NCBI GenBank assembly: GCA_942493035.1
Contig: OW818666.1
Coordinates: forward strand, 3,028,702 to 3,092,701
DNA length: 64,000 nucleotides
Direction of reading: 5' to 3'
Source of the DNA: an uncultured Spirochaetota bacterium
GTDB lineage: Bacteria > Spirochaetota > UBA4802 > UBA5550
Numbering within the stretch: the stretch's first letter is position 1; every line of letters starts with the position of its first letter. This document shows, piece after piece, positions 4,017 through 49,215 of this stretch. The notes under the pieces were generated by a model that was not told the origin of the DNA, ran no database searches, and worked only from the letters and a program-made list of their open reading frames with translations. Made by a program: the position numbers and the translations under genes.

Positions 4017-4571
4017 ATGAAACCTTCGTATAACATCCATATCGGCGAATACTACGCGAGCAAGACTCCGGCAATTATTACAACAATTCTCGGCCCATGC
4101 GTGGCAGTGTGCATCTATGATAAGACAAAAATGATCGGCGGGATGAACCACATCCTTATGCCTGGAGATGCCCCTGACAGAGAAAATATAATCGACTCAC
4201 GATATGGCATAAATGCCATGGAACTTCTGATTAACCAGATGATGAAACTCGGCGCCAACAGATATAAACTTACAGCAAAAGTTTTCGGAGGAGCAGCAAT
4301 ACTCTCCTCTATTTCCGGCGAATTCAACATGGGTATAAGAAATGTTGAATCGGTAATACAATTTCTTGAGATAGAAAAAATTCCTATTATCAATTATAAT
4401 TTCGGAGGATTTGATTCCAGAAGAATTTACTATCACTCCGACACCGGTGAGGTTCTGATAAAAAGAATCAAATCAAGAGAAGCACTTACTGAAGACTCAG
4501 TTGTCCGGGAAAGACGGCTTGAGGCTGAAAAAAGAATTAAGAAAACACCGTCAGTTATATTTTTCGACTGA
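4017..4571 (+). CDS. cheD: CheD-like chemoreceptor glutamine deamidase, paralog 1.
   Basis: The ILGPCVAVCIYD and GGMNHILMPGD motifs match the CheD catalytic Cys/His region. RBS-like AGGAAAAAG precedes the ATG. ~70% identical to the ORF at 32014-32568. Confidence 0.8.
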   Translation: MKPSYNIHIGEYYASKTPAIITTILGPCVAVCIYDKTKMIGGMNHILMPGDAPDRENIIDSRYGINAMELLINQMMKLGANRYKLTAKVFGGAAILSSISGEFNMGIRNVESVIQFLEIEKIPIINYNFGGFDSRRIYYHSDTGEVLIKRIKSREALTEDSVVRERRLEAEKRIKKTPSVIFFD

Positions 4572-4575: not shown

Positions 4576-4621
4576 GCAGAACCTCCCCATCGCCATGTGG
4601 AGAGGGGGCCGGGTGATGAGG
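4576..4621. terminator. GC-rich hairpin between convergent cheD-like gene and kinase gene. Candidate bidirectional terminator and member of the CTCCCC...GGAGAGGG repeat family.
   Basis: CCTCCCCATCGCCATGTGGAGAGGGGGCCGGGTGATGAGG lies between stop codons at 4571 and 4622. Similar modules occur at 8041-8075 and 27521-27560. Confidence 0.4.
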
Positions 4622-14761: not shown

Positions 14762-17680
14762 TTACTCCGTAAACTCAAATCTCTGCAGCTCTACAAAAAA
14801 AGTACTCCCCTTACCCGGTTCAGATTCAACGCGAACTCTTCCATTATGCTTTTCAGCAATCCTTTTAACAATACTTAATCCCAGACCATCCCCTGTATCA
14901 GGCTGACTGGAATCCACCTTATAGAATATATCCCATATTTTTTCAAGATGCCTCTGGTCAATACCGGAACCATTATCCCGCATAGAATATACCACCCTCC
15001 TGTATTCAATACCGGCAGTAATTTCAATTATTAATTGTCTGCTCTTGTCACGATACTTTATTGCATTACCGATTATGTTAGAAAAAAGCTGATTAAGAAG
15101 ATTTTCATCACCATAACAAGGCGGGAGGTCTGATATATTTACAATAGCATTCAATTCAGTTAGTTGAAAATTGTAATTACCTATAATAGTATGTAGCAGC
15201 TGACTGGTATCAATTTTTTTAATGCTCATCAATGTCCGTCCGGTCCGTGACAAATGGAGAAGTCCGGCAAGGAGTGTATCCATTTTCGTTACACTGGCGA
15301 AAATAAATTTAAGTGACTTAGGAATATCCTCATCTATGATATGATCTAAATCAGATTTAATCCCGGGAGATATTGATGAATCAGTAATTATAGTTTTAAT
15401 TGAATCCGCATGTTTTTGCAGACGCCTGCTGAATCCCTGAATATTTACAAGGGGTGATCTCAAGTCGTGAGATGCAATATACAGATAATTCTCAAGCTCT
15501 TCGTTCTTGGCAAAAATCTCATTCTGTATCTCTCTGATACCGGTTATATCCGTGGTAATTGTCGCGAAATTATTTTTTTTCGGGGACACTGCCGACACGG
15601 AAAAATATTTATCCAGCGGTTCAAAATATGTTGTATATTCATACGGAACACCTGTCGTGGCAACCCGTGCATACTCATCGATAAACGGTGCAGTCCCGGT
15701 CTGAAATACGTCAGTAGCAAGTTTTCCTGAAGCATCACTTTTTTCAATTCCGGTAATTGCGGTGAACGCATTATTACAATCGGTTATCCGGTAATTAACC
15801 GCTTCACCTTTCTCATCAAACACCAGTTCATGAAGCACTACCATCTCGGTCATTGAGCTGAAGAGAGTATTCAGTTTCTCTTCACTCTCACGAAGGGCTT
15901 CCTCTACATGTTTGCTCTCTGTGATATCTCTTGCAGTCCCTTCAAATCCTATGACAGTGCCGGATTCATTCCGCAATGGAACTGCACTTGAAGTATGCCA
16001 GCACCACGTCCCATCTAAGTGACATACCCGGTATTCCACACCCTCCTGCCGCTCACCGGTTTCAATCACCTTCTTAAGCCACTCAGCACATGCCGGGACA
16101 TCATCGGGATGAACAAAAGGCACAAAGGACTGACCAACAACCTGATTTAACGGGTGACCAAGGAGTGCTGTCCATGCAGGTGAAACAAAAGTAAATATTC
16201 CATCTGAAGTAAGGGTGTAAATAATATCGTGGCTGTTTTCGACAAGCTGGCGAAACTTCTCCTCACTATCATGCAGGGCTTTCTCTGCCTCCTTGCGTGC
16301 AGTAATGTCAGTAGCAGTAGTAAGATTCATTACTACAATTCCGTTTTCATCTTTGATAGGATTTGCCTTTGCGAGAAAATACATAATTCTGTCGGGCAAT
16401 GGAACTGTAACTTCCAGAGACCGGGCTTCCCCGGTTTCGAAAACCTGTCTGTTAGTTTCCTGCCTGTAATCAGCATGCTCTTTGGGATAAACATCCCAGA
16501 AAGTTTTCCCTATAAAATATTCAGGTTTCTGCCCGAAGGTAGAAGCAAAGACATTATTTGCAAATTGATACTCCCCTTTTTCATTTACGCAGAAGACCAC
16601 ATCACTTGTATTTTCAATAAGTGAACGGTACTTCAATTCACTCTCGCGCAAGGCAGTTTCGATCCTTTTTCGATCACTGATGTCGCGTGTCACACTCATT
16701 ATATGAGGCACACCCTGAATATTAATGATCTTGGCAGATATCAATCCGGTTACCGGAGTGCCGTCTTTACGCTGAAAAACAACCTCTAAGTTTTCGCATA
16801 TACCTCTTTCACGCAAAGCAGAAACTACTTTAAGCCGATCTTCCGGATATTTCCAGAGATTAATTTCAAGTGATGATTTACCTGTTACATCTTTTCGGGT
16901 ATAACCGGTCAGAGTAGAGAATCCTTCATTTACCCGGATAAAAAAACCGTCGTCAATCTGTGTGATCAAAACCGAATCGGGATTAGTGTTGAAAAAAAGT
17001 TCCAGGTTTTCCTTGTCCTCGCTGTTTTCAGAATTCAGCCGCTGATTGAGCATTATTATAAGACCAAATGTCACCAGAATCCCTGAGATAAATAGAAATA
17101 CAAATGAAATCGCCTGCATCATAGCTGGAGTAAATAAGCTTTCTACGGGATCAGCAGCAATTGTTATAATGGAACGAAAAGAAAAGAAACAGCCCTGAGT
17201 AAAAAAAAGTACCGTGTTGAAATTTGCAGAAGCTTCAACAGAAACAGTCTTGTAAAAAAATATACTCCATGCGATGAGAAATGAAACGGCTCCAACGATA
17301 CCATAAATAATTACTGTCCTGGATGTTATATAATCATTAAAGTATGTAAAATAAATAAATGATAAAAGATAAACAGAAAAAATTGAAATAATAAGTCCAC
17401 TATTCTCTTTCTTATCAAAAAACCGCATCACCCCAATATATAAAAAAACTGTTCCCGCCAGGATCAGTGCGTTTGCCAGAATGATTGAAATCATCTTTAC
17501 AGCAATAATACCGCGAAGAAAAAGAAAAATATACCCGGAAGACATTGAGGTAAAACCGAGCAGCCACCATCCAACACCCTTGTAGGCTTCATTAACCCTG
17601 TATTGCAGAAAGAGAGCAATAACCTGTAAAAAATTTGTGATGCTAAGTACAATTACCATGGTGAATATATCAATTTTCAT
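14762..17680 (-). CDS. Membrane sensor histidine kinase of the classic HisKA/HATPase_c type. N-terminal polytopic membrane domain followed by multiple PAS domains.
   Basis: 972 aa. Hydrophobic N-terminal ~200 aa with at least 6 predicted helices. PAS linkers (VTRDISDRKR, TARDITESKHVEEAL). H-box ASHDLRSPLVNIQGF. N-box NAIKY. G-boxes DNGSGI...GDGLGLSIV. Confidence 0.85.
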   Translation of the reverse strand: MKIDIFTMVIVLSITNFLQVIALFLQYRVNEAYKGVGWWLLGFTSMSSGYIFLFLRGIIAVKMISIILANALILAGTVFLYIGVMRFFDKKENSGLIISIFSVYLLSFIYFTYFNDYITSRTVIIYGIVGAVSFLIAWSIFFYKTVSVEASANFNTVLFFTQGCFFSFRSIITIAADPVESLFTPAMMQAISFVFLFISGILVTFGLIIMLNQRLNSENSEDKENLELFFNTNPDSVLITQIDDGFFIRVNEGFSTLTGYTRKDVTGKSSLEINLWKYPEDRLKVVSALRERGICENLEVVFQRKDGTPVTGLISAKIINIQGVPHIMSVTRDISDRKRIETALRESELKYRSLIENTSDVVFCVNEKGEYQFANNVFASTFGQKPEYFIGKTFWDVYPKEHADYRQETNRQVFETGEARSLEVTVPLPDRIMYFLAKANPIKDENGIVVMNLTTATDITARKEAEKALHDSEEKFRQLVENSHDIIYTLTSDGIFTFVSPAWTALLGHPLNQVVGQSFVPFVHPDDVPACAEWLKKVIETGERQEGVEYRVCHLDGTWCWHTSSAVPLRNESGTVIGFEGTARDITESKHVEEALRESEEKLNTLFSSMTEMVVLHELVFDEKGEAVNYRITDCNNAFTAITGIEKSDASGKLATDVFQTGTAPFIDEYARVATTGVPYEYTTYFEPLDKYFSVSAVSPKKNNFATITTDITGIREIQNEIFAKNEELENYLYIASHDLRSPLVNIQGFSRRLQKHADSIKTIITDSSISPGIKSDLDHIIDEDIPKSLKFIFASVTKMDTLLAGLLHLSRTGRTLMSIKKIDTSQLLHTIIGNYNFQLTELNAIVNISDLPPCYGDENLLNQLFSNIIGNAIKYRDKSRQLIIEITAGIEYRRVVYSMRDNGSGIDQRHLEKIWDIFYKVDSSQPDTGDGLGLSIVKRIAEKHNGRVRVESEPGKGSTFFVELQRFEFTE

Positions 17681-17689
17681 TTATTTCTC

Positions 17690-17886
17690 CGGTAGACATT
17701 ATCGATCATTCTGCGTCCCCGCCCCCTCTGGCCCCTGGCCATCTCCCCCTTGATGAGAAGGTGGAGAGAATATAAAATCTTTTCCGTACACCCCTTGCCC
17801 CATCTCATCATGGGCGACGAACAGGATGTTCTAGTGTCGGGTGCGGACAGGACGTCCAAAATGCACCCGACGAAAGGTGCCCGTAG
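17690..17886. repeat. Left part of a GC-rich REP-like composite repeat (family shared with 31596-31940, 32581-32760 and 49135-49215). Truncated by the IS insertion.
   Basis: Contains the CATCTCCCCCTTGATGAGAAGGTGGAGAG module and the 36-nt bulged hairpin 17836-17871, and ends ...CGACGAAAGGTGCCCG. The intact units elsewhere continue GCGGGCGGATAGGGGC, which here resumes at 19341. Confidence 0.6.
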
Positions 17887-17995
17887 GGTTTACTATGCTA
17901 GAACAGAGAGGTTAATTTATTTGAAAATCTAAAAAAGAAGGCTACCTTAGAAGTGCAAAAGAAGTAAAACAAAAATCAACAAAGGAGGTAGCCTT

Positions 17996-19069
17996 ATGAG
18001 TAATTTAATGAACTATATAGTTAAAAACAAGGAAATTTTTATTGGTCTTGAAGATTCTAAAAAGACTTGGAAAGTATGTGTACGAAGCGGAAAAGTAACA
18101 ATTCATGAGGCGAGTATGCCAGCTGAATATGAAGTACTTAAAAACTATTTTAACAACAAATTTGCGGATTGCCTCATACATGTAATGTATGAGGCCGGAT
18201 TTAGGGGATTTGGATTACACGATCAGTTGAAATCTGACGGATATGATTGTATTGTTACGCCTCCACATACTGTAACTCAAGAGAAAACACAACGGCAGAA
18301 AAATGACCGTATAGACTGCCGGAGGCTGGCAAAGAATCTAGAAAGTGGCGATTACCATATCTGCCACGTTCCAGATCGAAAGCGCCGTGAAGACCGCCAG
18401 ATATCACGTTTATATGAGCAATTACAACGCGATATAACAAGGGAATGTAACAGGATCCGAAGGGCATTGGAGTTTCACGGCTTAGACAATCAGTTTCAGG
18501 GAGGCAGTTGGTATCGAACACATTATAAAAAAGCATACGAACGTATTCCCGAGATGGATATTTCTTTATCACTGAAATTTGACTTCAGTATTATGTTCAA
18601 TGAATTGTTTCATCTCTGGGAACTTCAGAAACAGGTGCTGAAAGAAATTCATATATTGGCAAAGTCAGAAGCATACAAAGAAGATGTTGACTTGCTAAAA
18701 AGCGCACCTGGTATCGGTATTCTGACAGCAATCAGACTTGTTCTGGAGTGGGGAAGTCTTGACAGGTTTCACAATAAAGCTGAATTCTCAAGTTTTCTGG
18801 GATTGATCCCAAGTGAATATTCATCAGGTGAAACGGAACGGAAAGGTCATATTACAAAACAGGGAAATAAATTAGTACGGTCATGGCTTGTTGAGTGCGC
18901 ATGGCGAGCATTGAAATATGATCCGGTACTACTGCAAATATTTAATAATGTTGTTAACAGTTCGGGAAGCAGAAAGAAAGCGATTGTTGCAGTTGCAAGA
19001 AAACTGGCTATTCGTTTACGGACTCTGTTAATTCATAGAACACCATATACGGTTGGTTTAGTTCATTGA
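17996..19069 (+). CDS. IS110-family transposase: DEDD RuvC-like N-terminal domain plus Transposase_20 C-terminal domain.
   Basis: 357 aa. N-terminus FIGLEDSKKTWKVCV. C-terminal SFLGLIPSEYSSGETERKGHITKQGNKLVRSWLVECAW motif typical of the IS110/IS116/IS902 family. Strong SD AAAGGAGGT 7 nt upstream. Confidence 0.9.
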   Translation: MSNLMNYIVKNKEIFIGLEDSKKTWKVCVRSGKVTIHEASMPAEYEVLKNYFNNKFADCLIHVMYEAGFRGFGLHDQLKSDGYDCIVTPPHTVTQEKTQRQKNDRIDCRRLAKNLESGDYHICHVPDRKRREDRQISRLYEQLQRDITRECNRIRRALEFHGLDNQFQGGSWYRTHYKKAYERIPEMDISLSLKFDFSIMFNELFHLWELQKQVLKEIHILAKSEAYKEDVDLLKSAPGIGILTAIRLVLEWGSLDRFHNKAEFSSFLGLIPSEYSSGETERKGHITKQGNKLVRSWLVECAWRALKYDPVLLQIFNNVVNSSGSRKKAIVAVARKLAIRLRTLLIHRTPYTVGLVH

Positions 19070-19340
19070 TGTTTAAGGATATTATAACAAACAAGGAGCT
19101 GTACATTACAATGCTTTATTTAACAATTTGGTGCATGATGTCCTATCCGCTGTCCCTTCTGAGGACGTCACAGGGTTTATCAGCACCATTAAAAGCTAAA
19201 GAATAAATAAACTGTACACAAGTACGAATAGCGGCATATAAAGCGTTTTAATTGCAGGCTGCCTGGTTATTAAAAAAAAGGAGCACGCTAAAAGAAAAAA
19301 ATTTAAAAAAAGGTAGCACTTAAATTTGACTTTCTCATAG
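19070..19340 (+). ncRNA. Candidate IS1111-type bridge (guide) RNA region in the 3' non-coding end of the IS.
   Basis: 270-bp non-coding tail. Contains GGTGC-ATGATGT-CCTATCCGC (19130-19150), where CCTATCCGC is the exact reverse complement of the target right-flank GCGGATAGG. Also contains AGGACGTC (19165-19172), identical to the target hairpin loop region at 17849-17856. Inference only. Confidence 0.35.
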
Positions 19341-19368
19341 CGGCGGATAGGGGCGGCGGATAAGGGCG

Positions 19369-20964
19369 TCACACATCAAACTCCAGCACAAACGTTGTCC
19401 CTTCGCCACGTTCAATCCTTATAACTCCACCTATCTGTTCAGTCAGCATATTAACAAGCTCCAGTCCAAAACCTCTTGTATTCTGAAGACTCACAGCCTC
19501 CGGAATTCCAACACCGTCATCCTGTACTTTAATAACAACATGATTATCAATCATTGACACAGACATAATTATCGTGCCGTGATCTCTCCCTGTAAATGCA
19601 TACTTCATCATATTTGTAAGCAGTTCATTAACTATAATTCCCAGAGGTGTGAGCTTATTTATATTCAGTATAAAATCTTCAATATCAGTTTTAATCTCAA
19701 TTTTTGCTCTATCAATAAAACTACCGGTAATCTCTTCTGTCAAAGGCTGAAGATAATCCTTAACCGAAAGTTCACGAAAATTTTCCGTGCAGTACAATCT
19801 GTCATAAAGCATTATCATACTCTGAACGCGGCTCTCGGCATCACGGAGCGAGGCTGCGGCTGTCGGATTATCCTCAGCTGAGAGCTGCAGAGTGAGGAGT
19901 CCCTTTATTGTATTCATATTGTTTTTTATACGATGATGAACTTCTTTAAGAAGAAGCTCTTTTTCAAGCAGAAGATTCTGTATTTTCTCATCAGAAAATT
20001 TTCTCTCTGTAATATCACGGCCTATTCCAAGCACTCCTATCAGATGCCCTGTATTATCATACATCGGGGTTTTAATTGTATCAAGCATGGCCCGGTGTCC
20101 GTCATCGGCGAAGGTAATCCACTCTTCGTTACTGGTAGGTTTTCCAGCCACCATTGCCCTGCGGTCATTTTCCCGGAAGAAGTCAGCAAGCTCTTTATCT
20201 ACAAAATCATAATCCGTTTTCCCGATTATATCTTTAACCGCTGCACCAAAAAATCGCTCGAACATTGTGTTACATGCAAGATAAACACCATCTTTATCCT
20301 TAAGCCAGATAAGGTCCGGAATAGCCAGCAGCAGAGTGAGCAGATGACTTTCACTTTTATGAAGGGCTGACTCGCTGCTTTCCAGAGCATACATAAATCT
20401 GTTCCGTGACAGATTATCAGATATTATTTTCCCGATGAGAAGAGTCGCCAGCGGATATAAAATCATTACCGGCAGTGCAATTTTTTTCACAACAGTAACA
20501 GCAATATTCTGCGGTAGTGTAAACATCAGCAGAATCATTGAGACATGGACTAGAATACCTATACCGAGTAGATTCAATGCTGAAACTTCTTTATTCCTCA
20601 TAGTCGTTCTAAAATAAAAAAATAATCCTATGATGGTTGAAGATACAATAACCAGAATCCCGGTAAAGGCCCCTGCTCCGCCCTGAAGAACTCTTAAAGA
20701 TACAGTCATCACAAAAGCAACAGATGCAGATACTGGTCCGAAAAATAAACCGCACAAGCTTATTACCACAGACCTCCCGTCAAAGATCAGACCCGGCCCC
20801 ATGTTCAGCGGACGGAGCATACCAATCACAGCAATCCCTCCGAATAAAATACCCTGAAGGACAGAACCGGTCCGGCGATCCTTCCACCGCTCCCCGATAA
20901 AACCGGATATAACACTAAGCGCCGCAAGAAGCGCAAGATTATATATAAGATCAATGATTATCAT
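19369..20964 (-). CDS. Membrane sensor kinase: 5TM LytS-type N-terminal domain, PAS, HisKA_2 and HATPase.
   Basis: Start moved to the ATG at 20964 (AAGGAG SD 7 nt upstream). The upstream in-frame ATG at 21021 lies inside the foldback element TIR. Hydrophobic N-terminal ~190 aa. H-box EVHHRIKNNMNTIKGLL. G-box DDGVGIP...GFGLELV. Confidence 0.8.
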   Translation of the reverse strand: MIIIDLIYNLALLAALSVISGFIGERWKDRRTGSVLQGILFGGIAVIGMLRPLNMGPGLIFDGRSVVISLCGLFFGPVSASVAFVMTVSLRVLQGGAGAFTGILVIVSSTIIGLFFYFRTTMRNKEVSALNLLGIGILVHVSMILLMFTLPQNIAVTVVKKIALPVMILYPLATLLIGKIISDNLSRNRFMYALESSESALHKSESHLLTLLLAIPDLIWLKDKDGVYLACNTMFERFFGAAVKDIIGKTDYDFVDKELADFFRENDRRAMVAGKPTSNEEWITFADDGHRAMLDTIKTPMYDNTGHLIGVLGIGRDITERKFSDEKIQNLLLEKELLLKEVHHRIKNNMNTIKGLLTLQLSAEDNPTAAASLRDAESRVQSMIMLYDRLYCTENFRELSVKDYLQPLTEEITGSFIDRAKIEIKTDIEDFILNINKLTPLGIIVNELLTNMMKYAFTGRDHGTIIMSVSMIDNHVVIKVQDDGVGIPEAVSLQNTRGFGLELVNMLTEQIGGVIRIERGEGTTFVLEFDV

Positions 20965-21002
20965 GAAAAACTCCTTGTACCAAAAAATTCTCTCTATCCT
21001 TT

Positions 21003-21106
21003 TGTCTGAATCAGGATTCATAGGATTTAAAGATTAAAGGATGCGGTAAAATAAAACCCTCTCTAAATCCTATAATCCCTTAATATGCTTAATCCTGATT
21101 CAGACA
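21003..21106. repeat. Foldback element copy with both TIRs: TGTCTGAATCAGGATTCATAGGATTT ... AATCCTGATTCAGACA.
   Basis: The arms are reverse-complementary and flank ATGCGGTAAAATAAAACCCTCTC. The right TIR provides the stop codon (GTCTGA) of the 21100-24774 kinase. The left TIR creates a spurious upstream ATG for the 19369 gene. Confidence 0.65.
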
Positions 21107-24836: not shown

Positions 24837-24939
24837 GCCCCCACACCCCCGGAGGGGGCAAAGCGGAATACTTTAAAAAAACTAATCCCTACTACAATAC
24901 CCATTTATCCATCTTTGCCCCCTCCGGGGGTGCGGGGGC
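24837..24939. repeat. IR-flanked element. 27-bp arms GCCCCCACACCCCCGGAGGGGGCAAAG / CTTTGCCCCCTCCGGGGGTGCGGGGGC (1 mismatch) around a 49-bp AT-rich spacer.
   Basis: Read directly. Same GC-rich IR-arm type and ~50-bp AT-rich-spacer layout as 14621-14738, but with an unrelated spacer sequence. Lies between two kinase genes (stop at 24971, start at 24774). Confidence 0.55.
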
Positions 24940-24970
24940 GTCAAGTGTAAGCGCTGGTTAAGATAACACT

Positions 24971-27364
24971 CTACACTTCAAACTCCAGCACAAACCTTGT
25001 CCCCTCTCGACGCTCAATCCTTATTCTTCCGCCGATCTGCTCCGCGAGCATATTCACAAGTTCAAGTCCAAAACCGGTTGAGTTTTTGAAATCAATTGTT
25101 TCCGGCATCCCGACTCCGTTATCCTGAACATAAACTACTGCAAGATTCCCTTTTACAGATGCTGATACTTTTATCACTCCGCTATCTCTCTCTGTAAACG
25201 CATACTTCATCATATTAGTAAGGAGTTCATTGACGATTATTCCAAGCGGCGAGAGCGTTTTAACATTCAATATAAAATCTTCAATATCTGTTTCAATCTT
25301 CACTTTCGAGGAATTCGGGAAACTCCCTACAATCTCCTCTGTCAGCGGCTGGAGATACTCTTTAACCGAGAGCTCGCGGAAATTTTCAGTACTGTAAAGT
25401 CTGTCATATAACATTATCATACTCTGAACACGACTCTCGGCGTCACGGAGAGATGCAGCTGCTGAGGGATTCTCCTCGGCAAGAAGCTGCAGTGTCAGTA
25501 AACCTTTTATCGTATTCATGTTGTTCTTTATACGATGGTGAACTTCATTCAGAAGGAGTTCTTTACTAACCAGAAGGGATTTTATTTTTTCTTCCGATTG
25601 TTTGCGTTCAGTAATATCTCGCGCAGTTACTACAAAACGATTTGCCCCCCCTATTACAGCAAAACGCATATTTATCTCAGTACTGAATAATTCTCCGTTT
25701 TTACGCTTTGCAAGCCACTCAAAAGTCTGCGGACCCGATTCTCTCGCTTTCCTTAGCCATCCCATCGCTTCACTCTGAGAAAAAGGCGGCTCACCCTGAC
25801 TGAGGTCACCAACCGGAGTGCGTAGAGCTTCAGAGTGAGTATATCCGTACAACTCACACATGCTCCGGTTAACATCAATTATTTCGCCTGTATCGGCATC
25901 ATCAACAAATACTGCATCACTAAGCGAATCCAACACCGCGTTCAGGTATTCCTCACTTTTACGTAATGCGTCCTCAGTTCTTTTAAGACTTGTAATATCT
26001 ATAAATGTACATACGACCTGCCTTACTGTTCCATCATCATTTAATTGAGGTTCGGCATCTACCAGCAGCCAGACCCTGTCGCCTGAAGCAGGACGATAAA
26101 CACCCATAATAACATCATGTACCGCATGCCGGGCAGCAATTGCCTCAGGAACAGGATGAGTGTTGCCCGGAAATGGAGATCCATCATCATGTATAACATT
26201 CCAGTCAGGATCAAAAGATGTTTTACCAAGCAGCTGATCTTCAGTAAGACCCAGAAGTTCAAGCGCCTTGGGATTGCTCATCAATATTTCAGCTTTCGGG
26301 CTTTGAAGAAGTACTCCAACCTGCATATCACTGACCAGATTCCGGAATCTCTCTTCACTGTCGCGGAGAGTGTCACTGGTGGATATAAGCTCCTCATTAG
26401 CAGCCTCCATCTCTTCCAGTGCTGAACTCAGTTCCTCATTGACCGCTTCCAGTTCTTCATTCTTCAGTTTAATCTCAGACTCACTTTGAATAATTTTAAA
26501 AGTGGCTCTCCTCACCTGGAGCTTTAATAAAACAATAAAAAACAGAGCAGATACACCCAATCCGGTAATTATCCATAAATGCATTCTTTTCTGTGCGGCA
26601 TAATAATCCGGAGAATGAGTTGAAAAGTTTTTTATATAGATAATCTCATACTCACCCGAGGCCTTAATCTCTTTCAGACGTTTATTAATGAACTCCACCA
26701 GCTCCGGCCTGTTTTTAGATATTCCATATGAAGCGCCCTGAGGGAACAAACCATCATGCTGCAGTACCACCTGACCGACCAGATTATTTTTTGATATATA
26801 ATACTTAACTACCTCTGTAATCTCAATGAAGGCATCAATACGGTTTTCCTTCAACGCCATTATCATCTGTAAAAAAGTTTCAAAAACTTCATAATTTGGT
26901 GACTTGAACTGATCGCGTACAATGACTTCACTGTAGTATCCCCTCACTGCTCCCAATCTATATTTCCCCGCATTTTTAATGTCCATCTTACCGGCATTCA
27001 CATTCGTGAAAACTCCGTAATACCGGATATATGCATCGTCAGTGAAATAAACCTGATTCTCTCTTTCCGGAGTTTTAACAAGCGGACCGCAAAAATCCAG
27101 CCGGTTATTTATTGTATGTTCATAGATTTCATTCCATGTGTGACCATATTTAAATTCCAGTTTATAGTCACCTTTTTCGAATATCAGTTTAATCAGATCC
27201 AGCTCATACCCCTGGGGTGTATTGTTTTCAATAAATGAAAACGGAGGATAGTCCGTATCAACACCAAAAGTTACAACACTTTCTGATGCATTTAATGTTG
27301 TGCTGAAGAACATCAAACACAATAAGATAAAAAACATCGCACACCGGATCTTAATACTGTTCAT
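24971..27364 (-). CDS. Sensor histidine kinase: signal peptide, periplasmic SBP_bac_3-like domain, TM, NEEL coiled coil, 2x PAS, HisKA_2 and HATPase.
   Basis: Start placed at ATG 27364 (MNSIKIRCAMFFILLCLMFFSTTLNAS signal peptide). The longer ORF reaches 27418. Periplasmic domain includes KTPERENQVYFTDD. TM helix LWIITGLGVSALFFIVLL. Heptads NEELEAVNEELSSALEEMEAANEELISTSD. H-box EVHHRIKNNMNTIKGLL. Confidence 0.8.
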   Translation of the reverse strand: MNSIKIRCAMFFILLCLMFFSTTLNASESVVTFGVDTDYPPFSFIENNTPQGYELDLIKLIFEKGDYKLEFKYGHTWNEIYEHTINNRLDFCGPLVKTPERENQVYFTDDAYIRYYGVFTNVNAGKMDIKNAGKYRLGAVRGYYSEVIVRDQFKSPNYEVFETFLQMIMALKENRIDAFIEITEVVKYYISKNNLVGQVVLQHDGLFPQGASYGISKNRPELVEFINKRLKEIKASGEYEIIYIKNFSTHSPDYYAAQKRMHLWIITGLGVSALFFIVLLKLQVRRATFKIIQSESEIKLKNEELEAVNEELSSALEEMEAANEELISTSDTLRDSEERFRNLVSDMQVGVLLQSPKAEILMSNPKALELLGLTEDQLLGKTSFDPDWNVIHDDGSPFPGNTHPVPEAIAARHAVHDVIMGVYRPASGDRVWLLVDAEPQLNDDGTVRQVVCTFIDITSLKRTEDALRKSEEYLNAVLDSLSDAVFVDDADTGEIIDVNRSMCELYGYTHSEALRTPVGDLSQGEPPFSQSEAMGWLRKARESGPQTFEWLAKRKNGELFSTEINMRFAVIGGANRFVVTARDITERKQSEEKIKSLLVSKELLLNEVHHRIKNNMNTIKGLLTLQLLAEENPSAAASLRDAESRVQSMIMLYDRLYSTENFRELSVKEYLQPLTEEIVGSFPNSSKVKIETDIEDFILNVKTLSPLGIIVNELLTNMMKYAFTERDSGVIKVSASVKGNLAVVYVQDNGVGMPETIDFKNSTGFGLELVNMLAEQIGGRIRIERREGTRFVLEFEV

Positions 27365-27520
27365 AATGACGTGCTCCCGTATAACTAAACATATAGACCT
27401 CACCCGCTTGCTGCGCACCCTCTCCTCAATGAGAGGTTTTCCGTATTCTAAACTTTCCGCTGCATTAACAAAATAAACCTGTAAAAAATATTTCTTCCAA
27501 ACACAACAGCCCTGTTACAA

Positions 27521-27560
27521 CCTCCCCCTCTCTTTGAGGAGAGGGGGCCGGGGAGAGAGG
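27521..27560. repeat. GC-rich hairpin module CCTCCCCCTCTC-tttgag-GAGAGGGGGCCGGGGAGAGAGG downstream of a kinase stop. Candidate terminator.
   Basis: 8-bp stem CCCCTCTC/GAGAGGGG. Same family as 4576-4621 and 8041-8075. Confidence 0.45.
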
Positions 27561-31549: not shown

Positions 31550-31592
31550 ATCACACGAACGTGTGATTTTTCTATCACACGTTCGTGTGATG
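31550..31592. promoter_or_regulatory. Two tandem 18-bp palindromes, ATCACACGAACGTGTGAT and ATCACACGTTCGTGTGAT, ~80-120 bp upstream of the hybrid kinase start. Operator-like.
   Basis: Read directly. Core ACACG-AA/TT-CGTGT is shared with the palindrome at 2042-2061 upstream of another receiver-PAS gene. Centres are 25 bp apart. Confidence 0.45.
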
Positions 31593-31595
31593 CGG

Positions 31596-31940
31596 GAAAT
31601 CTGCCACCCCGCCCCCACTGTCGCTCCCCCTCTGGCCTCTGGCCATCTCCCCCCTGGTGAAAGGGTGGAGAAAAACGCGGAATGTTTCGTATATTTGTTG
31701 AGACGCAGCATGCTGCGTATCTACAAATATACGTACACCTTTCACCATCTTACCATGGGGAAAGGTGCCTGGCGGGCGGATAGGGGCAGGGCGCCGAAAA
31801 AACACAAAACATTCCGAACTACCCTTTCACCATCTCACCATGGGCGACGAACAGGATGTTCTAGTGTCGAGTGCGTGCAGGACGCACAAATTGCACTCGA
31901 CGAAAGGTGCCCGGCGGGCGGATAGGGGCGAGGCGGGCCA
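31596..31940. repeat. Composite GC-rich REP-like repeat cluster in the divergent intergenic region between the kinase and cheD paralog 2.
   Basis: Contains CATCTCCCCCCTGGTGAAAGGGTGGAG, the ACGCAGCATGCTGCGT palindrome and three CACCATGGGG-GAAAGGTGCC units. Ends GGTGCCCGGCGGGCGGATAGGGGCGAGGCGGG. One unit carries the 36-nt bulged hairpin at 31865-31900. Confidence 0.65.
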
Positions 31941-32013
31941 CAAAAATTCTTATTGCATTAATCGCTGATTTTATCTATATTATAACTGCTACATAAAACT
32001 ATCAGAGAATAAG

Positions 32014-32568
32014 ATGAAACCCACAGTAAATATACATATTGGCGATTACTACTCCAGCAGAACACCCGTTGTTATAACTACAGTCCTGGGGCCATGCGCA
32101 GCAGTCTGCCTTTATGACGCGGATAATAAAATAGGAGGGATGAATCATATACTTCTTCCGGGAGATTGCCCCGCCGAAATGGGTGATGGTGATTCCAGAT
32201 ATGGTATAAATGCCATGGAACTTCTGATAAATCAGATGATGAAACTCGGAGCTAACCGCTACAAACTCACTGCAAAAATATTCGGAGGGGCGTCCATTCT
32301 CTCCACAGTATCTTCCGAGTTCTGCATGGGGATGAGAAATATCGAATTTGTAGTGGATTTTCTGTTAACAGAAAAAATACCAATACTCAACTACAATTTC
32401 GGAGGAGTAGACTCCCGGAGAATATTCTACCACACCGACACAAGCGACGTGCTTCTAAAAAGAATAAAATCAAGAGAAGCAATCAACGAATTTGCCCATG
32501 TCCAGCAGAGACGGCTCGACTTAGAGAAGAGGATAAAGAAGTCATCGAAAATTGTTTACTTTGACTGA
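32014..32568 (+). CDS. cheD: CheD-like chemoreceptor glutamine deamidase, paralog 2.
   Basis: VLGPCAAVCLYD and GGMNHILLPGD motifs. ~70% identical to the 4017-4571 product, with the same C-terminal extension KRIKSREA...RRL.LEKRIKK. Confidence 0.8.
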   Translation: MKPTVNIHIGDYYSSRTPVVITTVLGPCAAVCLYDADNKIGGMNHILLPGDCPAEMGDGDSRYGINAMELLINQMMKLGANRYKLTAKIFGGASILSTVSSEFCMGMRNIEFVVDFLLTEKIPILNYNFGGVDSRRIFYHTDTSDVLLKRIKSREAINEFAHVQQRRLDLEKRIKKSSKIVYFD

Positions 32569-32580
32569 GGAAGATAGAGA

Positions 32581-32760
32581 CGCCACACACCATGGCCGCA
32601 CCCGCCCCCTCTGTCGCGATGCGACATCTCCCCCCTGGTGAAAGGGTGAAGAAAAATGCGGAATATTTCGTATTACCCTTTCACCATCTCACCATGGGGA
32701 AAGGTGCCCGGCGGGCGGATAGGGGCGGGGCGTGGCGGAACCGTGCGAGCCAATGCAACT
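32581..32760. repeat. GC-rich REP-like repeat unit, same family as 31596-31940. Sits between the convergent cheD-like and giant kinase genes; likely terminator function.
   Basis: CGACATCTCCCCCCTGGTGAAAGGGTGAAG...TACCCTTTCACCATCTCACCATGGGGAAAGGTGCCCGGCGGGCGGATAGGGGCGGGGCG. 11-bp stem GGTGAAAGGGT/ACCCTTTCACC. Confidence 0.6.
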
Positions 32761-32764
32761 AGAT

Positions 32765-47052: not shown

Positions 47053-49128
47053 ATGGAAAACATTAAAATGCGGTACGAAAGAAACAGTGTAATTAAAAAT
47101 ATAATAATTGCAGAAGAACTGAGAAAGAACATTGTCACAATCTCCGACATGATGTTCCCGATAATCTACTCTGAAAATATTGAAAAAACTATCGATTCTA
47201 TTTTACTGGAAACAGAGAGCAGCACACTTCTTACAGTTCTTATAATACCTGTTGATCAATATAAAAATATATACAAACATCTGAATTTAATCGATTATTC
47301 CAGAATATTTTACCAGATGCTTCTTATAGGATCGGAAGAGGCTCTTGACGATCAGAATCTGGACAGGTTGTATCATATCAGTGATTTTCTTCCCGAGACT
47401 GCCACCGAGAAAAAACTGAAATTTGTAATAAACAAATCTCTATCCATAATAGAAAAACACTTTCAGAACGAACAGAAAAAAAACTGGTATTTCAGCAGAT
47501 TAACAGACGCGCAGAGAGACCAGGAGGATCTGATCAACATCGGGAAGTCGCTCTCCGGTGAAAAAGATATGGAGAAGCTCCTGCGGCTTATACTTTATCT
47601 CAGCAAAAAAATTACAGGCGCCGATGCGGGAAGTATCTACCTTGTGGAAGAGGATGAAAACGAGAAGAAGCGTCTCAGATTTAAATATTCACATACATTT
47701 TCAAGAGAGATCCCCCTTGAAGAATTTGTAATGGATATGAACAAGAAATCTATCTCCGGTTATGTAGCTGTAACCGGTGAAGTTCTCAACCTCCCCGATG
47801 CCTATAAAATTCAGGAGCTTGCACCATATTCATTTAATCCTTTTTTTGACAGACAGCACAGCTATATCAGCCGATCAATGCTTGTTGTCCCGATGAAAAA
47901 TCATATGGACCAGATAATCGGAGTTATACAGCTCATTAACAGCAAAGAGGATCATTCCGGACTAAAAAAATATGAGAATGAAGCCTTCGAAATTAAACTT
48001 GAAAATCTTGCAGATTTCGATCAATACGTTGTTACCTTTGATGAAAGATACAACAGTCTGCTCGAAGCAATCGCAGGTCAGGCTGCTATCTCCATTGAAA
48101 ATAACAGACTTATCAACCAGATACAGAAACAGTTCGAAGAATTTGTCAAAGCATCAGTAACCGCCATAGAGTCACGGGACCCTGCAACTTCCGGTCACTC
48201 GTTCAGAGTTGCCCAGATATGCAAGGAGATGGCGGCAGCTGTAAACGAAATGCATTCAGGTTATCTTAAAGATTTCAATTTCAATGAAAATGATATTAAG
48301 GAGCTGGAGTTTGCCGCTCTCCTCCACGACTTCGGAAAAGTATATATAGATCTGAACATTTTTAAAAAAGCAAAAAAACTCTATCCTAAAGATCTTGAAA
48401 ACTTGAAGCTCCGTCTCGATTACCTTTACCGGTACCTCGAACTTGCGTACTTCGCGAAAGAGATGGAGATACTGCGTGAAGGGCTAAACTTTAATAAACC
48501 ATATGAGGAAGAACTGAGCAGAATACGGTCAGAGAAAACAGCAAAACTTACCCGCATAATTGAGATAAAGGATGACCTGGTAAGTCTTAACGAACCGACT
48601 GTTACAGACCGTGATCCCGATAAGGTTCTGGAAGGGATTCTGCATGAAATTGAAAATATCGAATGTATAGATATTACCGGACATCATGTAGATATACTCA
48701 CCGACAACGATAAAGTAAACCTTCTGATAAAACGAGGGAGCCTCAACAATGAAGAGCGTCTGGAAATTGAAAGTCATGTTATTGAAACATACAAATTCGT
48801 AAGCAAAATTCCATGGCCGCCGGAATATAAACGGATACCCGAAATTGCAATGCGCCACCACGAGAAACTCGACGGTACAGGTTATCCCGATGGACTGAAA
48901 GGAAAAGAGTCCATATCTCTTCAGTCAAGAATGATGGCGATAGCTGATATATATGACGCACTCACAGCACAGGACAGACCGTACAAAAAATCCGTACCGA
49001 TCGATAAAGTAGTGAAAATACTCAAAGAGGAAGCGGACAACAACAAACTCGACTCGGACCTCGTAGACCTTTTCATAGATGCAAAAATCTATGAAAAAGT
49101 ATCACCAACAGCAACATCCGAAAATTAA
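47053..49128 (+). CDS. GAF-domain HD-GYP phosphodiesterase (c-di-GMP-specific PDE family) with an N-terminal domain of unknown function.
   Basis: 691 aa. GAF-like region (GADAGSIYLVEEDE...VIQLINSKEDH). HD motif AALLHDFGKV. GYP motif HHEKLDGTGYPDGLKG. Confidence 0.8.
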   Translation: MENIKMRYERNSVIKNIIIAEELRKNIVTISDMMFPIIYSENIEKTIDSILLETESSTLLTVLIIPVDQYKNIYKHLNLIDYSRIFYQMLLIGSEEALDDQNLDRLYHISDFLPETATEKKLKFVINKSLSIIEKHFQNEQKKNWYFSRLTDAQRDQEDLINIGKSLSGEKDMEKLLRLILYLSKKITGADAGSIYLVEEDENEKKRLRFKYSHTFSREIPLEEFVMDMNKKSISGYVAVTGEVLNLPDAYKIQELAPYSFNPFFDRQHSYISRSMLVVPMKNHMDQIIGVIQLINSKEDHSGLKKYENEAFEIKLENLADFDQYVVTFDERYNSLLEAIAGQAAISIENNRLINQIQKQFEEFVKASVTAIESRDPATSGHSFRVAQICKEMAAAVNEMHSGYLKDFNFNENDIKELEFAALLHDFGKVYIDLNIFKKAKKLYPKDLENLKLRLDYLYRYLELAYFAKEMEILREGLNFNKPYEEELSRIRSEKTAKLTRIIEIKDDLVSLNEPTVTDRDPDKVLEGILHEIENIECIDITGHHVDILTDNDKVNLLIKRGSLNNEERLEIESHVIETYKFVSKIPWPPEYKRIPEIAMRHHEKLDGTGYPDGLKGKESISLQSRMMAIADIYDALTAQDRPYKKSVPIDKVVKILKEEADNNKLDSDLVDLFIDAKIYEKVSPTATSEN

Positions 49129-49134: not shown

Positions 49135-49215
49135 TCACTCCCTTCCCCTTCTCACCAAGGGGAAGGTGCCCAAAGGGCGGATGGGGAGGCGGATGGGGCG
49201 GTTCGGATGGGGGAC
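49135..49215. repeat. GC-rich REP-like repeat unit downstream of the HD-GYP gene. Same family as 31596-31940.
   Basis: TTCCCCTT-ctcacca-AGGGGAAGGTGCCCAAAGGGCGGATGGGGAGGCGGATGGGGCGG, compare CTCACCATGGGGAAAGGTGCCCGGCGGGCGGATAGGGGCGGGGCG. Confidence 0.55.

What the first reader, a model, noticed from the sequence alone, without database searches (positions are those of the whole stretch)
17690..19380. An IS110/IS1111-family element inserted inside a REP-like repeat, with a candidate guide segment complementary to the target
The sequence ...CGACGAAAGGTGCCCG ends abruptly at 17883. The remainder of the repeat unit (CGGCGGATAGGGGCGG) resumes at 19341, after a 1.46-kb element encoding a DEDD/Transposase_20 recombinase. 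An intact copy of the target at 31903-31930 reads AAAGGTGCCCGGCGGGCGGATAGGGGCG. IS110-family elements are known to target REP sequences and to use a bridge RNA encoded in a non-coding end. This element has a long (270 bp) 3' non-coding end, which is IS1111-like. That end contains GGTGC...CCTATCCGC (19130-19150), and the 9-mer is the exact reverse complement of GCGGATAGG in the right target flank. The chance expectation for a given 9-mer in 270 bp on both strands is about 0.002. It also contains AGGACGTC, identical to the loop of the target hairpin.
Basis: partly seen in the sequence, partly recalled or inferred. Interest (0 to 1): 0.72.

Follow-up and report, generated by a model that had tools for sequence, protein, structure and literature searches.

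The report
RNA-guided IS1111-type insertion sequence in repeat
This is an intact jumping gene of the IS110/IS1111 kind that carries its own small guide RNA, whose loop sequences match the repeat it landed in; it is a well-supported new example of a mechanism first described in 2024, not a new kind of system.

Summary
A 1,457-bp element (17887-19343) splits a GC-rich intergenic repeat and encodes an intact 357-aa IS110-family recombinase.

The 274-bp 3' non-coding end holds one structured RNA, about 19105-19252 on the + strand. Its helices are supported by compensatory changes in 26 relatives.

In 19 distinct relatives with different targets, this segment changes together with the right flank (permutation p < 5e-5). 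Five more distant relatives, examined only afterwards, follow the same rule. The 3' side of the loop tracks the left flank. A second region of the RNA tracks the element's own ends.

Two other insertions of the same element in other metagenomes, with different distal flanks, have the same junctions.

The anatomy is IS1111-type: subterminal inverted repeats, the RNA downstream of the gene, the top-strand guide ahead of the bottom-strand guide, and a promoter predicted across the circle junction.

The AGGACGTC match is best read as coincidence. The left-flank match is weak in this copy.

Verdict: new member of a known kind. RNA expression was not testable.

The parts
17701..17886 (+). Left part of the interrupted GC-rich intergenic repeat. 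It includes a hairpin module at 17838-17870 and the left target half ...GGTGCCCGTAG (17876-17886).
   Evidence: Same module order as the intact copies at 31589-31950 and 32576-32762. The hairpin keeps its pairing through compensatory changes between copies.
17887..19343 (+). The insertion sequence, 1,457 bp, counted from GGTTTA... to ...CATAGCGG. Both GG core copies are included.
   Evidence: The ends are conserved in all relatives: GGTTTRCTATG and CATAGCGG. The copy in L043 is 98% identical.
17887..17888 (+). Left copy of the GG core dinucleotide (inferred crossover site).
   Evidence: GG stands at both junctions in every relative of this clade. An empty target of the L002-type sister element at window 24908-24959 carries exactly one GG's worth of G's, five in all.
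17893..17906 (+). Left subterminal inverted repeat, CTATGCTAGAACAG. The predicted -10 hexamer TATGCT (17894-17899) of the circle-junction promoter lies inside it.
   Evidence: Aligns with the reverse complement of the right end as CTATG--AGAA. Relatives show the same, 9-12 bp with a 1-2 nt indel.
17938..17995 (+). 5' UTR hairpin. AAGGCTACCTT (17938-17948) pairs with AGGTAGCCTT (17986-17995), which buries the GGAGG ribosome-binding site (17984-17988) just before the ATG.
   Evidence: Read from the sequence. Both arms are conserved in all relatives, including those 46-50% identical.
17996..19069 (+). Recombinase gene, 357 aa, intact.
   Evidence: PF01548 and PF02371. NF033542 'IS110 family RNA-guided transposase', 195.7 bits against a cutoff of 140. 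Invariant in the 13-sequence alignment: E19/D20, E66, D104, D107, and Y275-S276-(S/T)277-G278 within GL-P----S(t)G. The C-terminal domain aligns to IS621 and ISCro4.
19105..19252 (+). Predicted bridge/seekRNA, about 148 nt. Closing stem P1 is 19105-19119 with 19238-19252. The covariance-model core is 19127-19239.
   Evidence: MFE fold -33.6 kcal/mol, z = -2.4. P1 duplex energy with own partner averages -11.0 kcal/mol, against -5.9 with non-cognate partners. Model R1 gives a single hit in the window, 97.7 bits, E = 9e-19.
19129..19188 (+). Target-binding stem-loop. P2 is 19129-19140 with 19178-19188. The apical hairpin P3 is 19152-19155 with 19163-19166. An asymmetric internal loop lies between them.
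   Evidence: RNAalifold plus pair counts: 99.6% of cells paired; 49 cells changed on both sides, against 13.9 in shuffles; slid controls 14-55% paired.
19141..19151 (+). Right-target guide (T segment), UCCUAUCCGCU. It can pair with the top strand 19342-19352 (GGCGGATAGGG) through 9 Watson-Crick and 2 G-U pairs.
   Evidence: Read from the sequence. Covariation with the right flank in 19 distinct RNAs: 169 contiguous pairs observed, against a permuted mean of 68.6 and maximum of 106, p < 5e-5. Five held-out distant relatives agree.
19169..19179 (+). Left-target guide (B segment), CACAG+GG+UUUA. It has the same sense as the left flank plus core plus left end (17882-17892, CGTAG GG TTTA), so it would pair with the bottom strand.
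   Evidence: Across relatives, 83 of 100 flank positions can pair, against about 2 of 5 for non-cognate flanks, p < 5e-5. In the window only 3 of 5 flank positions match.
19208..19235 (+). Donor-binding region. UAAAC (19208-19212) is complementary to left-end GTTTA (17888-17892). Hairpin P4 is 19214-19217 with 19222-19225. AUAGCGGC (19228-19235) is identical to the right end plus the first flank base (19337-19344).
   Evidence: The RNA segment and the right-end terminus change together: AAUAGCGG/CATAGCGG, AAUAGCAG/CATAGCAG, AAUAGUAG/CATAGTAG, AAUAGGAG/CATAGGAG. The base after CGG equals the first flank base in 17 of 19 RNAs, p < 5e-5. UAAAC/GTTTA, CAAAC/GTTTG and UGAAC/GTTCA co-vary, with some exceptions. 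P4 column 122/131 shows GC:15 and AU:11.
19326..19343 (+). Right end. It holds the -35 hexamer TTGACT (19326-19331), the right subterminal inverted repeat CTTTCTCATAG (19330-19340), then C plus the GG core (19341-19343).
   Evidence: The rebuilt circle junction with one GG reads TTGACT-17 nt-TATGCT. Relatives give TTGACA/TTGACT with a 17-18 nt spacer to TATGYT.
19344..19368 (+). Right target half and the rest of the repeat, CGGATAGGGGCG GCGGATAAGGGCG. It abuts the stop codon of the minus-strand gene 19369-21021.

Best explanation
This is an intact, probably active IS110-family insertion sequence with IS1111-type anatomy. It chose its insertion site by RNA-DNA base pairing.

Shown here:
- An intact DEDD/Ser recombinase gene.
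- A structured RNA-like element, about 148 nt, encoded downstream of the gene, with helices supported by covariation.
- A first internal loop in which the 5' side is complementary to the top strand of core plus right flank. The 3' side has the same sense as left flank plus core, so it would pair with the bottom strand.
- A second region, flanking a small hairpin, that matches the element's own left and right ends in the same way.
- All four matches co-vary with the DNA across relatives.
- A GG dinucleotide at both junctions that appears once in empty sites.
- Independent insertions of the same element at the same position and orientation in the same repeat family.

Inferred from published work on ISEc11, ISPa11 and IS621:
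- The element excises as a circle with junction ...CATAGC-GG-TTTACTATG....
- That junction assembles a promoter, TTGACT-17-TATGCT, which drives the recombinase and the RNA.
- The RNA binds the recombinase and bridges the circle junction (donor) to a repeat unit (target).
- Strands are exchanged at the GG core. The result is an insertion with GG on both sides and no other duplication.

In this copy, target choice rests mainly on the 11-pair right-hand guide. The left-hand guide matches only 3 of 5 flank bases.
For: - Protein family and catalytic motifs.
- Junctions, intact copies and the rebuilt empty site.
- RNA structure:
  - RNAalifold finds 19 pairs, 7 of them with compensatory changes.
  - 99.6% of cells are paired; 49 cells changed on both sides, against 13.9 in shuffles; slid controls give 14-55%.
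  - The closing stem is supported by own-versus-cross duplex energies.
  - G-U pairs, such as G39-U82 in 24 of 26 sequences, fix the + strand as the RNA strand.
- Guide-target covariation:
  - Right flank p < 5e-5.
  - Left flank p < 5e-5.
  - Five distant relatives (46-50% protein identity), examined only after the rule was formulated, obey it.
- Guide-donor covariation.
- Independent insertions with identical junctions: L043 and L067.
- A one-base guide change (UCCUAUCCGC to UCCCAUCCGC) is matched by a target change (CGGATAGGG to CGGATGGGG) in the 92% nt identical L041/L042.
- Empty L002-type site with a single GG at 24908-24959.
- Subterminal repeats and junction promoter spacing.
- At least four protein variants of this IS lie on the same 4.95-Mb contig.
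- Mechanistic precedent: PMC11187229 and PMC11208160.
Against: - No expression data. The RNA, its ends and its binding to the protein are inferred.
- No internal promoter stands out: 5 sites found against 4.7 expected.
- The left guide matches the left flank poorly in this copy and its closest kin (3 of 5; L041/L042 2-3 of 5).
- All three WIN-type contexts (window, L043/L044, L067/L068) carry CCCGTAG on the left. The intact copies in the window read CCCGGCG, and no uninterrupted GTAG variant was found.
- The other copies in the source genome could not be retrieved.
- No Rfam family exists for comparison.
- The single-GG core rests on one empty site of a sister element and on colinearity, not on a sequenced circle junction.
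Confidence: 0.85

Rival explanations
1. The complementarity is read at the DNA level, not through an RNA. A single-stranded part of the element's right end would pair with target DNA, as the subterminal guide sequences of IS200/IS605 elements do.
For: Sequence complementarity alone cannot tell RNA from DNA. No transcript was observed here, and no convincing internal promoter was found.
Against: - The guide lies about 190 bp from the element's tip, inside helices that keep pairing through strand-specific G-U pairs (G39-U82 in 24 of 26).
- Several guide-target duplexes need rU-dG or rG-dT wobbles (L002, L025, L029).
- For homologous IS1111 and IS110 elements, the RNA was shown to co-purify with the recombinase and to be required in trans (PMC11187229; PMC11208160).
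- NCBI's family model for this protein is named 'RNA-guided transposase'.
Confidence: 0.04
2. The 9-mer match is chance, or a by-product of GC-rich repeat fragments having been captured inside the element. It plays no role in targeting.
For: The genome is rich in related GC-rich repeats, so short matches are more likely than in random sequence. The companion AGGACGTC match does look like coincidence.
Against: - The segment occupies the same loop position in 19 distinct RNAs, and five further distant RNAs, with unrelated targets. It is complementary to its own flank in nearly all of them.
- Non-cognate flanks average 3.3 contiguous pairs, against 8.9 for the RNA's own flank.
- The rest of the non-coding end does not resemble the repeat.
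Confidence: 0.02
3. The element is RNA-guided in kind, but this copie's guide is not tuned to this repeat family. Its left guide (CACAG) points to a different or ancestral left half-site. The present insertions are off-target or relaxed events driven by the right guide alone.
For: - Only 3 of 5 left-flank positions match in the window, and 2-3 of 5 in L041/L042. Most other relatives match 4-5 of 5.
- Intact repeat copies in the window read GGCG where the occupied sites read GTAG.
Against: - The window and two other contexts (L043/L044, L067/L068) share exactly the same left junction, CCCGTAG. This argues for a reproducible preference and against sloppy targeting.
- The GTAG variant pairs one base better with the guide than GGCG does.
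- The right guide plus core gives 11 pairs.
Confidence: 0.12

Closest known systems
ISPa11 and ISEc11 (IS1111 family) with their seekRNA (Siddiquee et al. 2024, PMC11187229)
   Same: - DEDD recombinase with a GL-P----S(t)G motif.
- Subterminal inverted repeats with short asymmetric extensions.
- Long non-coding region downstream of the gene that encodes the guide RNA.
- The segment complementary to the top strand lies 5' of the segment complementary to the bottom strand.
- A promoter is predicted across the circle junction, as shown experimentally for ISEc11.
- ISPa11 also targets REP sequences.
- Close relatives carry different guides and different targets (natural reprogramming).
   Different: - The protein is 357 aa, just outside the 330-350 aa quoted for the family.
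- It has under 36% identity to every plasmid-borne IS110-family protein searched.
- Its placement in a recombinase tree with named IS1111 members was not tested.
- The inverted repeats carry a 1-2 nt indel.
- The extensions are 6 and 3 nt only if both GG copies are counted.
- The hosts are uncultured anaerobes (Spirochaetota, Desulfobacterota, Chloroflexota MAGs).
IS621 bridge RNA system (IS110 group; Durrant et al. 2024, PMC11208160; Hiraizumi et al. 2024, PMC11208158)
   Same: - Two binding regions in one RNA, one for the target and one for the donor.
- Each region reads the left half on the bottom strand and the right half on the top strand.
- The guides overlap a shared core dinucleotide.
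- IS621 also targets REP sequences.
- One base beyond the core is read by the non-cognate region, here the first right-flank base by the donor region. This resembles the handshake guides.
   Different: - The RNA is at the 3' end of the element, not the 5' end.
- The order of guides within each loop is reversed.
- The core is GG (AG in distant relatives) instead of CT.
- The donor region sits in a multi-branch junction closed by stem P1, not in a simple internal loop. Durrant et al. noted this for many IS1111 members.
- Protein similarity to IS621 is limited to the C-terminal domain (E = 1e-7).
ISPpu9/ISPpu10 of Pseudomonas putida (PMC12288879)
   Same: IS110-family elements inserted in REP sequences. 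ISPpu9 has a small RNA gene downstream of the recombinase gene. ISPpu10 forms a junction promoter.
   Different: Per the abstract, the ISPpu9 downstream RNA (Ssr9) is not needed for transposition and moves as a separate module. Here the downstream RNA carries the covarying guides. No orphan copy exists in the window.

Membership tests
IS110 family (DEDD recombinase elements) | Recombinase with an N-terminal DEDD RuvC-like domain (PF01548) and a C-terminal Transposase_20 domain (PF02371) | tested here: met
   PF02371 E = 5e-24 and PF01548 E = 1.4e-11. NF033542 scores 195.7 bits against a cutoff of 140.
IS110 family (DEDD recombinase elements) | Conserved catalytic acidic residues and the Ser of the SG motif | tested here: met
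   E19/D20, E66, D104, D107 and S276-(S/T)277-G278 are conserved in 13 homologues. KNDRID aligns with IS621 KTDTVD, and YSSG aligns with IS621 YESG. The first acidic motif reads GLEDSK, not the usual GIDxxK, so the identity of the first residue is inferred.
IS110 family (DEDD recombinase elements) | Site- and orientation-specific insertion with no duplication beyond a short core | tested here: met
   The window and two other contexts share the same junctions and orientation. Only GG is repeated at the two junctions.
IS1111 subgroup | Subterminal inverted repeats (11-13 bp per Siddiquee et al.; 7-17 bp per Durrant et al.) | tested here: met
   CTATG(CT)AGAA pairs with CTATGAGAA. Relatives show 9-12 bp interrupted by a 1-2 nt indel. 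This is within the wider published range and imperfect against the narrower one.
IS1111 subgroup | Asymmetric terminal extensions of 7 (or 6) bp on the left and 3 bp on the right | tested here: inconclusive
   GGTTTA (6) and CGG (3) lie beyond the repeats. One GG is also present in the empty site. The net extension is therefore 6+1 or 4+3, depending on convention.
IS1111 subgroup | The longer non-coding region lies downstream of the recombinase gene | tested here: met
   274 bp at the 3' side against 109 bp at the 5' side.
IS1111 subgroup | [quoted passage not shown] | tested here: met
   The T segment (19141-19151) lies 5' of the B segment (19169-19179). The order is the same in all relatives.
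IS1111 subgroup | C-terminal GL-P----S(t)G motif | tested here: met
   GLIPSEYSSG in the window. Relatives have SG or TG at this position.
IS1111 subgroup | Recombinase of 330-350 aa that clusters with IS1111 in a phylogeny | not tested
   The length is 357 aa, slightly outside the range. No named IS1111 reference sequences were available for a tree. The best plasmid-borne relatives are under 36% identical.
Bridge RNA / seekRNA | Conserved structured RNA in the long non-coding end | tested here: met
   The covariance model finds it downstream of the gene in relatives down to 46% protein identity. No Rfam family exists for it.
Bridge RNA / seekRNA | Loop segments that co-vary with both strands of the target | tested here: met
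   Right flank p < 5e-5 and left flank p < 5e-5. Held-out relatives agree.
Bridge RNA / seekRNA | Segments that co-vary with the element's own ends (donor recognition) | tested here: met
   AAUAG(C/U/G)(G/A)G tracks CATAG(C/T/G)(G/A)G. YAAAC/UGAAC tracks GTTTR/GTTCA, with a few exceptions.
Bridge RNA / seekRNA | The RNA is expressed, binds the recombinase and is required for transposition | not testable with these tools
   This needs RNA-seq, pull-down and a transposition assay.
REP (repetitive extragenic palindromic) elements, as the target | Short, GC-rich, imperfectly palindromic, multi-copy and extragenic | tested here: met
   At least five units of this family are in the window. All are intergenic and most abut stop codons. 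Other GC-rich palindromes lie at 4576-4621, 24908-24959 and 27521-27560. The window is 39.7% GC.
REP (repetitive extragenic palindromic) elements, as the target | Association with a RAYT (REP-associated tyrosine transposase) | tested here: not met
   The two 184-aa ORFs beside the repeats (4017-4571 and 32014-32568) are CheD, not Y1 transposases. The rest of the genome could not be examined, so 'REP-like' is the right wording.

The most novel reading that the evidence does not exclude
In this clade, the 3' guide of each binding region may read across the recombination joint on the bottom strand.

- The target loop's 3' guide equals left flank + GG + TTT of the element's left end.
- The donor region's 3' guide equals right end + GG + the first base of the right flank.

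In IS621 the cross-talk positions (handshake guides) act on the top strands. If this pattern is functional, IS1111-type elements might do one of two things. They might exchange the bottom strands first. Or they might use the same RNA to recognise the integrated junctions for excision.

Only the right-flank +1 position is supported by covariation (17 of 19, p < 5e-5; 3 of 5 in distant relatives). The TTT match is an identity without covariation, and it is absent in the distant relatives.
Probability: 0.2. Interest if true: 0.55.

Novelty: new member of a known kind. Interest (0 to 1): 0.35.

Why it matters
RNA-guided recombinases of the IS110/IS1111 family are being developed as programmable genome-editing tools. 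Most mechanistic work rests on IS621 and a few IS1111 members.

This locus, with some 20-25 relatives collected here, gives a fully annotated natural example from uncultured anaerobes:
- an explicit map of four guide segments;
- a GG or AG core;
- single-base co-changes of guide and target between near-identical elements;
- a covariance model for an RNA that Rfam does not contain.

It adds breadth and a testable guide map. It does not add a new principle. For genome annotation, it shows that the 3' end of such elements should be annotated as an RNA gene. It also shows that the GC-rich repeats downstream of genes in this genome are insertion hot spots.

Tried and rejected
- Retrieving the source genome or its other IS copies failed. 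The protein scan of genome contigs found nothing. Exact-protein look-ups for the window protein, P0001, P0125 and P0127 found nothing.
- Megablast of the IS against plasmids found no match.
- Rfam gave no family at the gathering threshold and only noise at E up to 10. There is no curated IS1111 bridge RNA model to run, so a model was built de novo.
- An internal sigma-70 promoter for the RNA was not found. The one site, at 19084-19112, is within chance expectation, and its start would cut into stem P1.
- AGGACGTC as a second guide was rejected as coincidence.
- GGTGC as a guide was rejected. It is the basal stem.
- The RAYT hypothesis for the two 184-aa ORFs beside the repeats was rejected. 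They are CheD.
- A search for an uninterrupted CCCGTAGGGCGGATAGG site in the fetched loci found none.
- Subgroup assignment by similarity to annotated plasmid IS elements was uninformative. All hits were under 36% identical and carried generic names.

Full report
**1. What is in the sequence**

Reading 17500-19600 and listing ORFs shows a 357-aa ORF at 17996-19069 on the + strand. It lies between two minus-strand sensor-kinase genes (14762-17680 and 19369-21021).

The protein hits PF02371 Transposase_20 (E = 5e-24) and PF01548 DEDD_Tnp_IS110 (E = 1.4e-11). It also hits NCBIfam NF033542, 'IS110 family RNA-guided transposase', at 195.7 bits against a cutoff of 140.

In an alignment with 12 homologues of 62-89% identity, the following are conserved (S/T at 277, the rest invariant): G17-L18-E19-D20, E66, D104, D107 and Y275-S276-(S/T)277-G278. 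The last motif aligns with the catalytic serine motif of IS621. The gene is intact.

**2. The interrupted repeat**

CGACGAAAGGTGCCCG occurs at 17868-17883 and, uninterrupted, at 31898-31913. GCGGATAGGGGCG occurs at 19343, 31918 and 32715, with one-mismatch copies at 19356 and 31776. A variant unit, GGTGCCC-AAA-GGGCGGATGGGG, lies at 49161-49213.

All relatives of the element start GGTTTRCTATG and end CATAGCGG. The element is therefore 17887-19343, 1,457 bp.

Joining the flanks with a single GG gives AAAGGTGCCCG-TA-GGGCGGATAGGGGCG. This has the same length as the intact AAAGGTGCCCG-GC-GGGCGGATAGGGGCG.

Independent support for one GG in the empty site comes from window 24908-24959. That stretch reads TTTGCCCCCTCC-GGGGG-TGCGGGGGCG. 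It equals the left flank of the 85% identical L002-type sister element (...CTCCG), plus GG, plus its right flank (GGTGCGGGGG).

The repeats are GC-rich palindromic units in a window of 39.7% GC. They sit right after stop codons. No REP-associated transposase is nearby; the adjacent 184-aa ORFs are CheD. 'REP-like' is a fair description.

**3. Related elements**

The source genome could not be fetched. The 90% cluster of the protein does hold four variants on one 4.95-Mb contig. One of them is called 40 residues shorter at the N terminus. This indicates at least four copies in the genome.

Relatives came from three sources:
- a metagenome scan (L001-L017);
- a genome scan with a conserved RNA motif (L018-L040), which returned Spirochaetota, Desulfobacterota, Chloroflexota and other MAGs;
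- exact-protein look-ups (L041-L069).

**4. The RNA**

All relatives share a conserved block downstream of the gene. It reads GGYGCAUGAYG, then about 10 variable nt, then a small hairpin ending ACGU, then 4-5 variable nt, then GGUUUR-UCAGCRCC. After a linker comes AAAC, a GUAC/GUGC hairpin, and GAAUAGCGG.

RNAalifold on 26 sequences predicts three helices with compensatory changes. Counting pairs gives 99.6% of cells paired and 49 cells changed on both sides, against 13.9 in shuffles. Sliding the 3' partners by 1-3 columns drops pairing to 14-55%.

A closing stem lies at 19105-19119 with 19238-19252. It differs completely in sequence between relatives but is always present. Mean duplex energy with the RNA's own partner is -11.0 kcal/mol, against -5.9 for non-cognate partners. 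The single-sequence fold of the window agrees.

Strand-specific G-U pairs show that the + strand is the RNA strand.

A covariance model built from the core finds exactly one copy in the window, at 19127-19239 (97.7 bits). It also finds the RNA downstream of the gene in relatives only 46-50% identical in protein. Rfam has no family for it.

**5. Guides**

*Right-target guide.* The 5' side of the internal loop (19141-19151, UCCUAUCCGCU) can form 9 Watson-Crick and 2 G-U pairs with the top strand 19342-19352 (GGCGGATAGGG).

In 19 distinct RNAs with a readable right flank, the number of contiguous pairs from the junction sums to 169. The permuted mean is 68.6 and the permuted maximum is 106, giving p < 5e-5.

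Examples: L008 UAACGGGUUC with G+AACCCGTTA; L002 CCCCGUACCC with G+GGTGCGGGG; L036 UUUCACCAUC with G+ATGGTGAA.

Five distant relatives that were not used to form the rule also obey it.

*Left-target guide.* The 3' side of the loop has the same sense as the 5 nt of left flank plus the core. 83 of 100 positions can pair with the bottom strand, against about 2 of 5 for non-cognate flanks, p < 5e-5. The window is a weak case: CACAG against CGTAG, 3 of 5.

*Donor guides.* In the second region, AAUAGCGG equals the right-end terminus CATAGCGG and changes with it in distant relatives. The observed pairs are AAUAGCAG/CATAGCAG, AAUAGUAG/CATAGTAG and AAUAGGAG/CATAGGAG.

The following base equals the first base of the right flank in 17 of 19 RNAs, p < 5e-5.

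The segment 5' of the hairpin (UAAAC) is complementary to the left end GTTTA. It co-varies as CAAAC/GTTTG and UGAAC/GTTCA, with a few exceptions.

*Overall plan.* This is the two-region layout of a bridge RNA: left halves are read on the bottom strand, right halves on the top strand, and the guides overlap the core (PMC11208160). The order within each loop is reversed, which is the order reported for IS1111 seekRNAs (PMC11187229). The donor region sits in a multi-branch junction, as Durrant et al. noted for many IS1111 members.

**6.

L043 holds a 98% identical copy. Its distal flanks differ on both sides, but its junctions are the same...GGTGCCCGTAG|GG...GG|CGGATAGGGG.

L067 has a 91% identical protein and the same right guide. 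It sits in a short form of the repeat in a third context, again with the same junctions.

L041 and L042 are 92% identical in nucleotides. They carry one base change in the guide (UCCCAUCCGC) and sit at ...|CGGAGGGGG and ...|CGGATGGGG. The L002-type and L003-type sisters occupy several contexts each, always with their own cognate flanks.

The test is passed.

**7. Element anatomy and family**

The left end reads GGTTTA-CTATGCTAGAAC. The reverse complement of the right end reads CCG-CTATGAGAAAG. These are subterminal inverted repeats of 9-12 bp with a 1-2 nt indel, and they are present in all relatives.

A circle junction with one GG places TTGACT 17 nt from TATGCT. Relatives give 17-18 nt. This matches the junction promoters known for ISEc11 and others.

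These features fit the IS1111 subgroup: the 3' location of the RNA, the guide order, and the GL-P----S(t)G motif with S/T variation.

Not settled:
- the protein is 357 aa, against the quoted 330-350;
- tree placement with named members was not tested;
- the extension rule (7 or 6, and 3) depends on how the shared GG is assigned.

**8. What does not hold**

GGTGC is the basal stem, not a guide.

AGGACGTC occurs only twice in the window, but four points argue against a role. ACGU is conserved in relatives with unrelated targets. GGACGU occurs in L003 and L055, which have other targets. The stem bases vary between repeat copies. The same IS in L043 lies beside a hairpin that reads AGGACGCC. Also, given about 180 8-mers in the flanking repeat and about 270 nt of non-coding end, one shared 8-mer is roughly what chance gives (my estimate).

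**9. Open points**

All three WIN-type contexts have CCCGTAG on the left. The intact copies in the window have CCCGGCG, and no empty GTAG site was found. The middle of the repeat is variable (GGC, AAA, GTA, GAA, AAC). A preference for a sub-variant is therefore plausible but unproven.

The match of the loop's GG-UUU to the left end's GG-TTT is an identity without covariation. It is absent in the distant relatives. I do not count it as shown.

Expression, processing and protein binding of the RNA are all inferred from homologous systems.

**10. Verdict**

It is a new, well-documented member of a known kind (IS1111-type, bridge/seekRNA-guided), not a new mechanism.

Noticed in passing
window 24908-24959: An uninterrupted copy of the exact target of a sister element: TTTGCCCCCTCC-GGGGG-TGCGGGGGCG. 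The sister is the L002 type, 85% protein identity, found only in other metagenomes. The site lies right after the stop codon of gene 24971-27418. This genome therefore carries an empty landing site for a related IS, and the site shows a single GG core.
   Followed up: partly
window 17838-17870 and 31868-31900; L043 left flank: The 57-nt module present in the long form of the repeat folds into a two-tier hairpin. The outer stem is CGRGTGC/GCACYCG. The inner stem differs between copies but stays paired (GGAC/GTCC, GTGC/GCAC, CCGGC/GCCGG). The loop AGGAC is constant. Compensatory changes between repeat copies suggest selection on the structure. Its function is unknown.
   Followed up: partly
window 17938-17948, 17986-17995 and 19310-19317: A 9-11 nt motif occurs three times in the element. 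AAGGCTACCTT and its complement AGGTAGCCTT form a hairpin that buries the ribosome-binding site. A third copy, AAGGTAGC, lies about 10 nt upstream of the -35 hexamer in the right end. In relatives the right-end copy changes with the left-end arm (GGCTACCTT with AAGGTAGC; GGCTATCTT with AAGATAGCC or AAGATGGCC). This could be a translational switch or an extra protein-binding repeat. It is unexplained.
   Followed up: partly
window 17882-17886; L043, L067: All three WIN-type contexts (window, L043, L067) have CCCGTAG as the left flank. The intact repeat copies in the window read CCCGGCG or CCCAAAG at that place. This is either a preferred sub-variant of the repeat or something the insertion does to the site.
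   Followed up: partly
window 49147-49222: A variant repeat unit with three tandem CGGATGGGG motifs, directly after the stop codon of gene 47053-49128. CGGATGGGG is the sequence matched by the guide of the 92% identical sister element (L041/L042), not by the window's own element.
   Followed up: no
window 1-38200: A long run of paralogous PAS/histidine-kinase genes, mostly on the minus strand (repeat families D1-D20; ORFs). GC-rich palindromes abut the stop codons at 4622, 19369, 27561 and 32765, and lie within about 12 nt of the stop at 24971. The IS is transcribed in the opposite direction to these genes.
   Followed up: no
window 4017-4571 and 32014-32568: Two 184-aa CheD paralogues (about 76% nt identity over 300 nt, D14), each next to GC-rich repeat clusters. 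They were tested as possible REP-associated transposases and are not.
   Followed up: yes
window 17701-17758, 31589-31665, 32576-32641: A second, C-rich module (CCCCGCCCCC...CTCTGGCC.CTGGCCATCTCCCCCCTGGTGAAAGGG) precedes the targeted unit in three loci. It is partly the reverse complement of the targeted unit (TGGTGAAAGGG against CCCTTTCACCA). The whole intergenic element is thus a large imperfect palindrome built from modules.
   Followed up: no
L020, L024, L035, L037, L039, L040: One Chloroflexia MAG carries at least six copies of a related element with identical or near-identical RNAs. One copy (L035) has a different right guide, GAUCAGGUCG instead of AAUCUCGUCG. My end-finding pattern did not locate their right ends, so their targets were not compared.
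   Followed up: no
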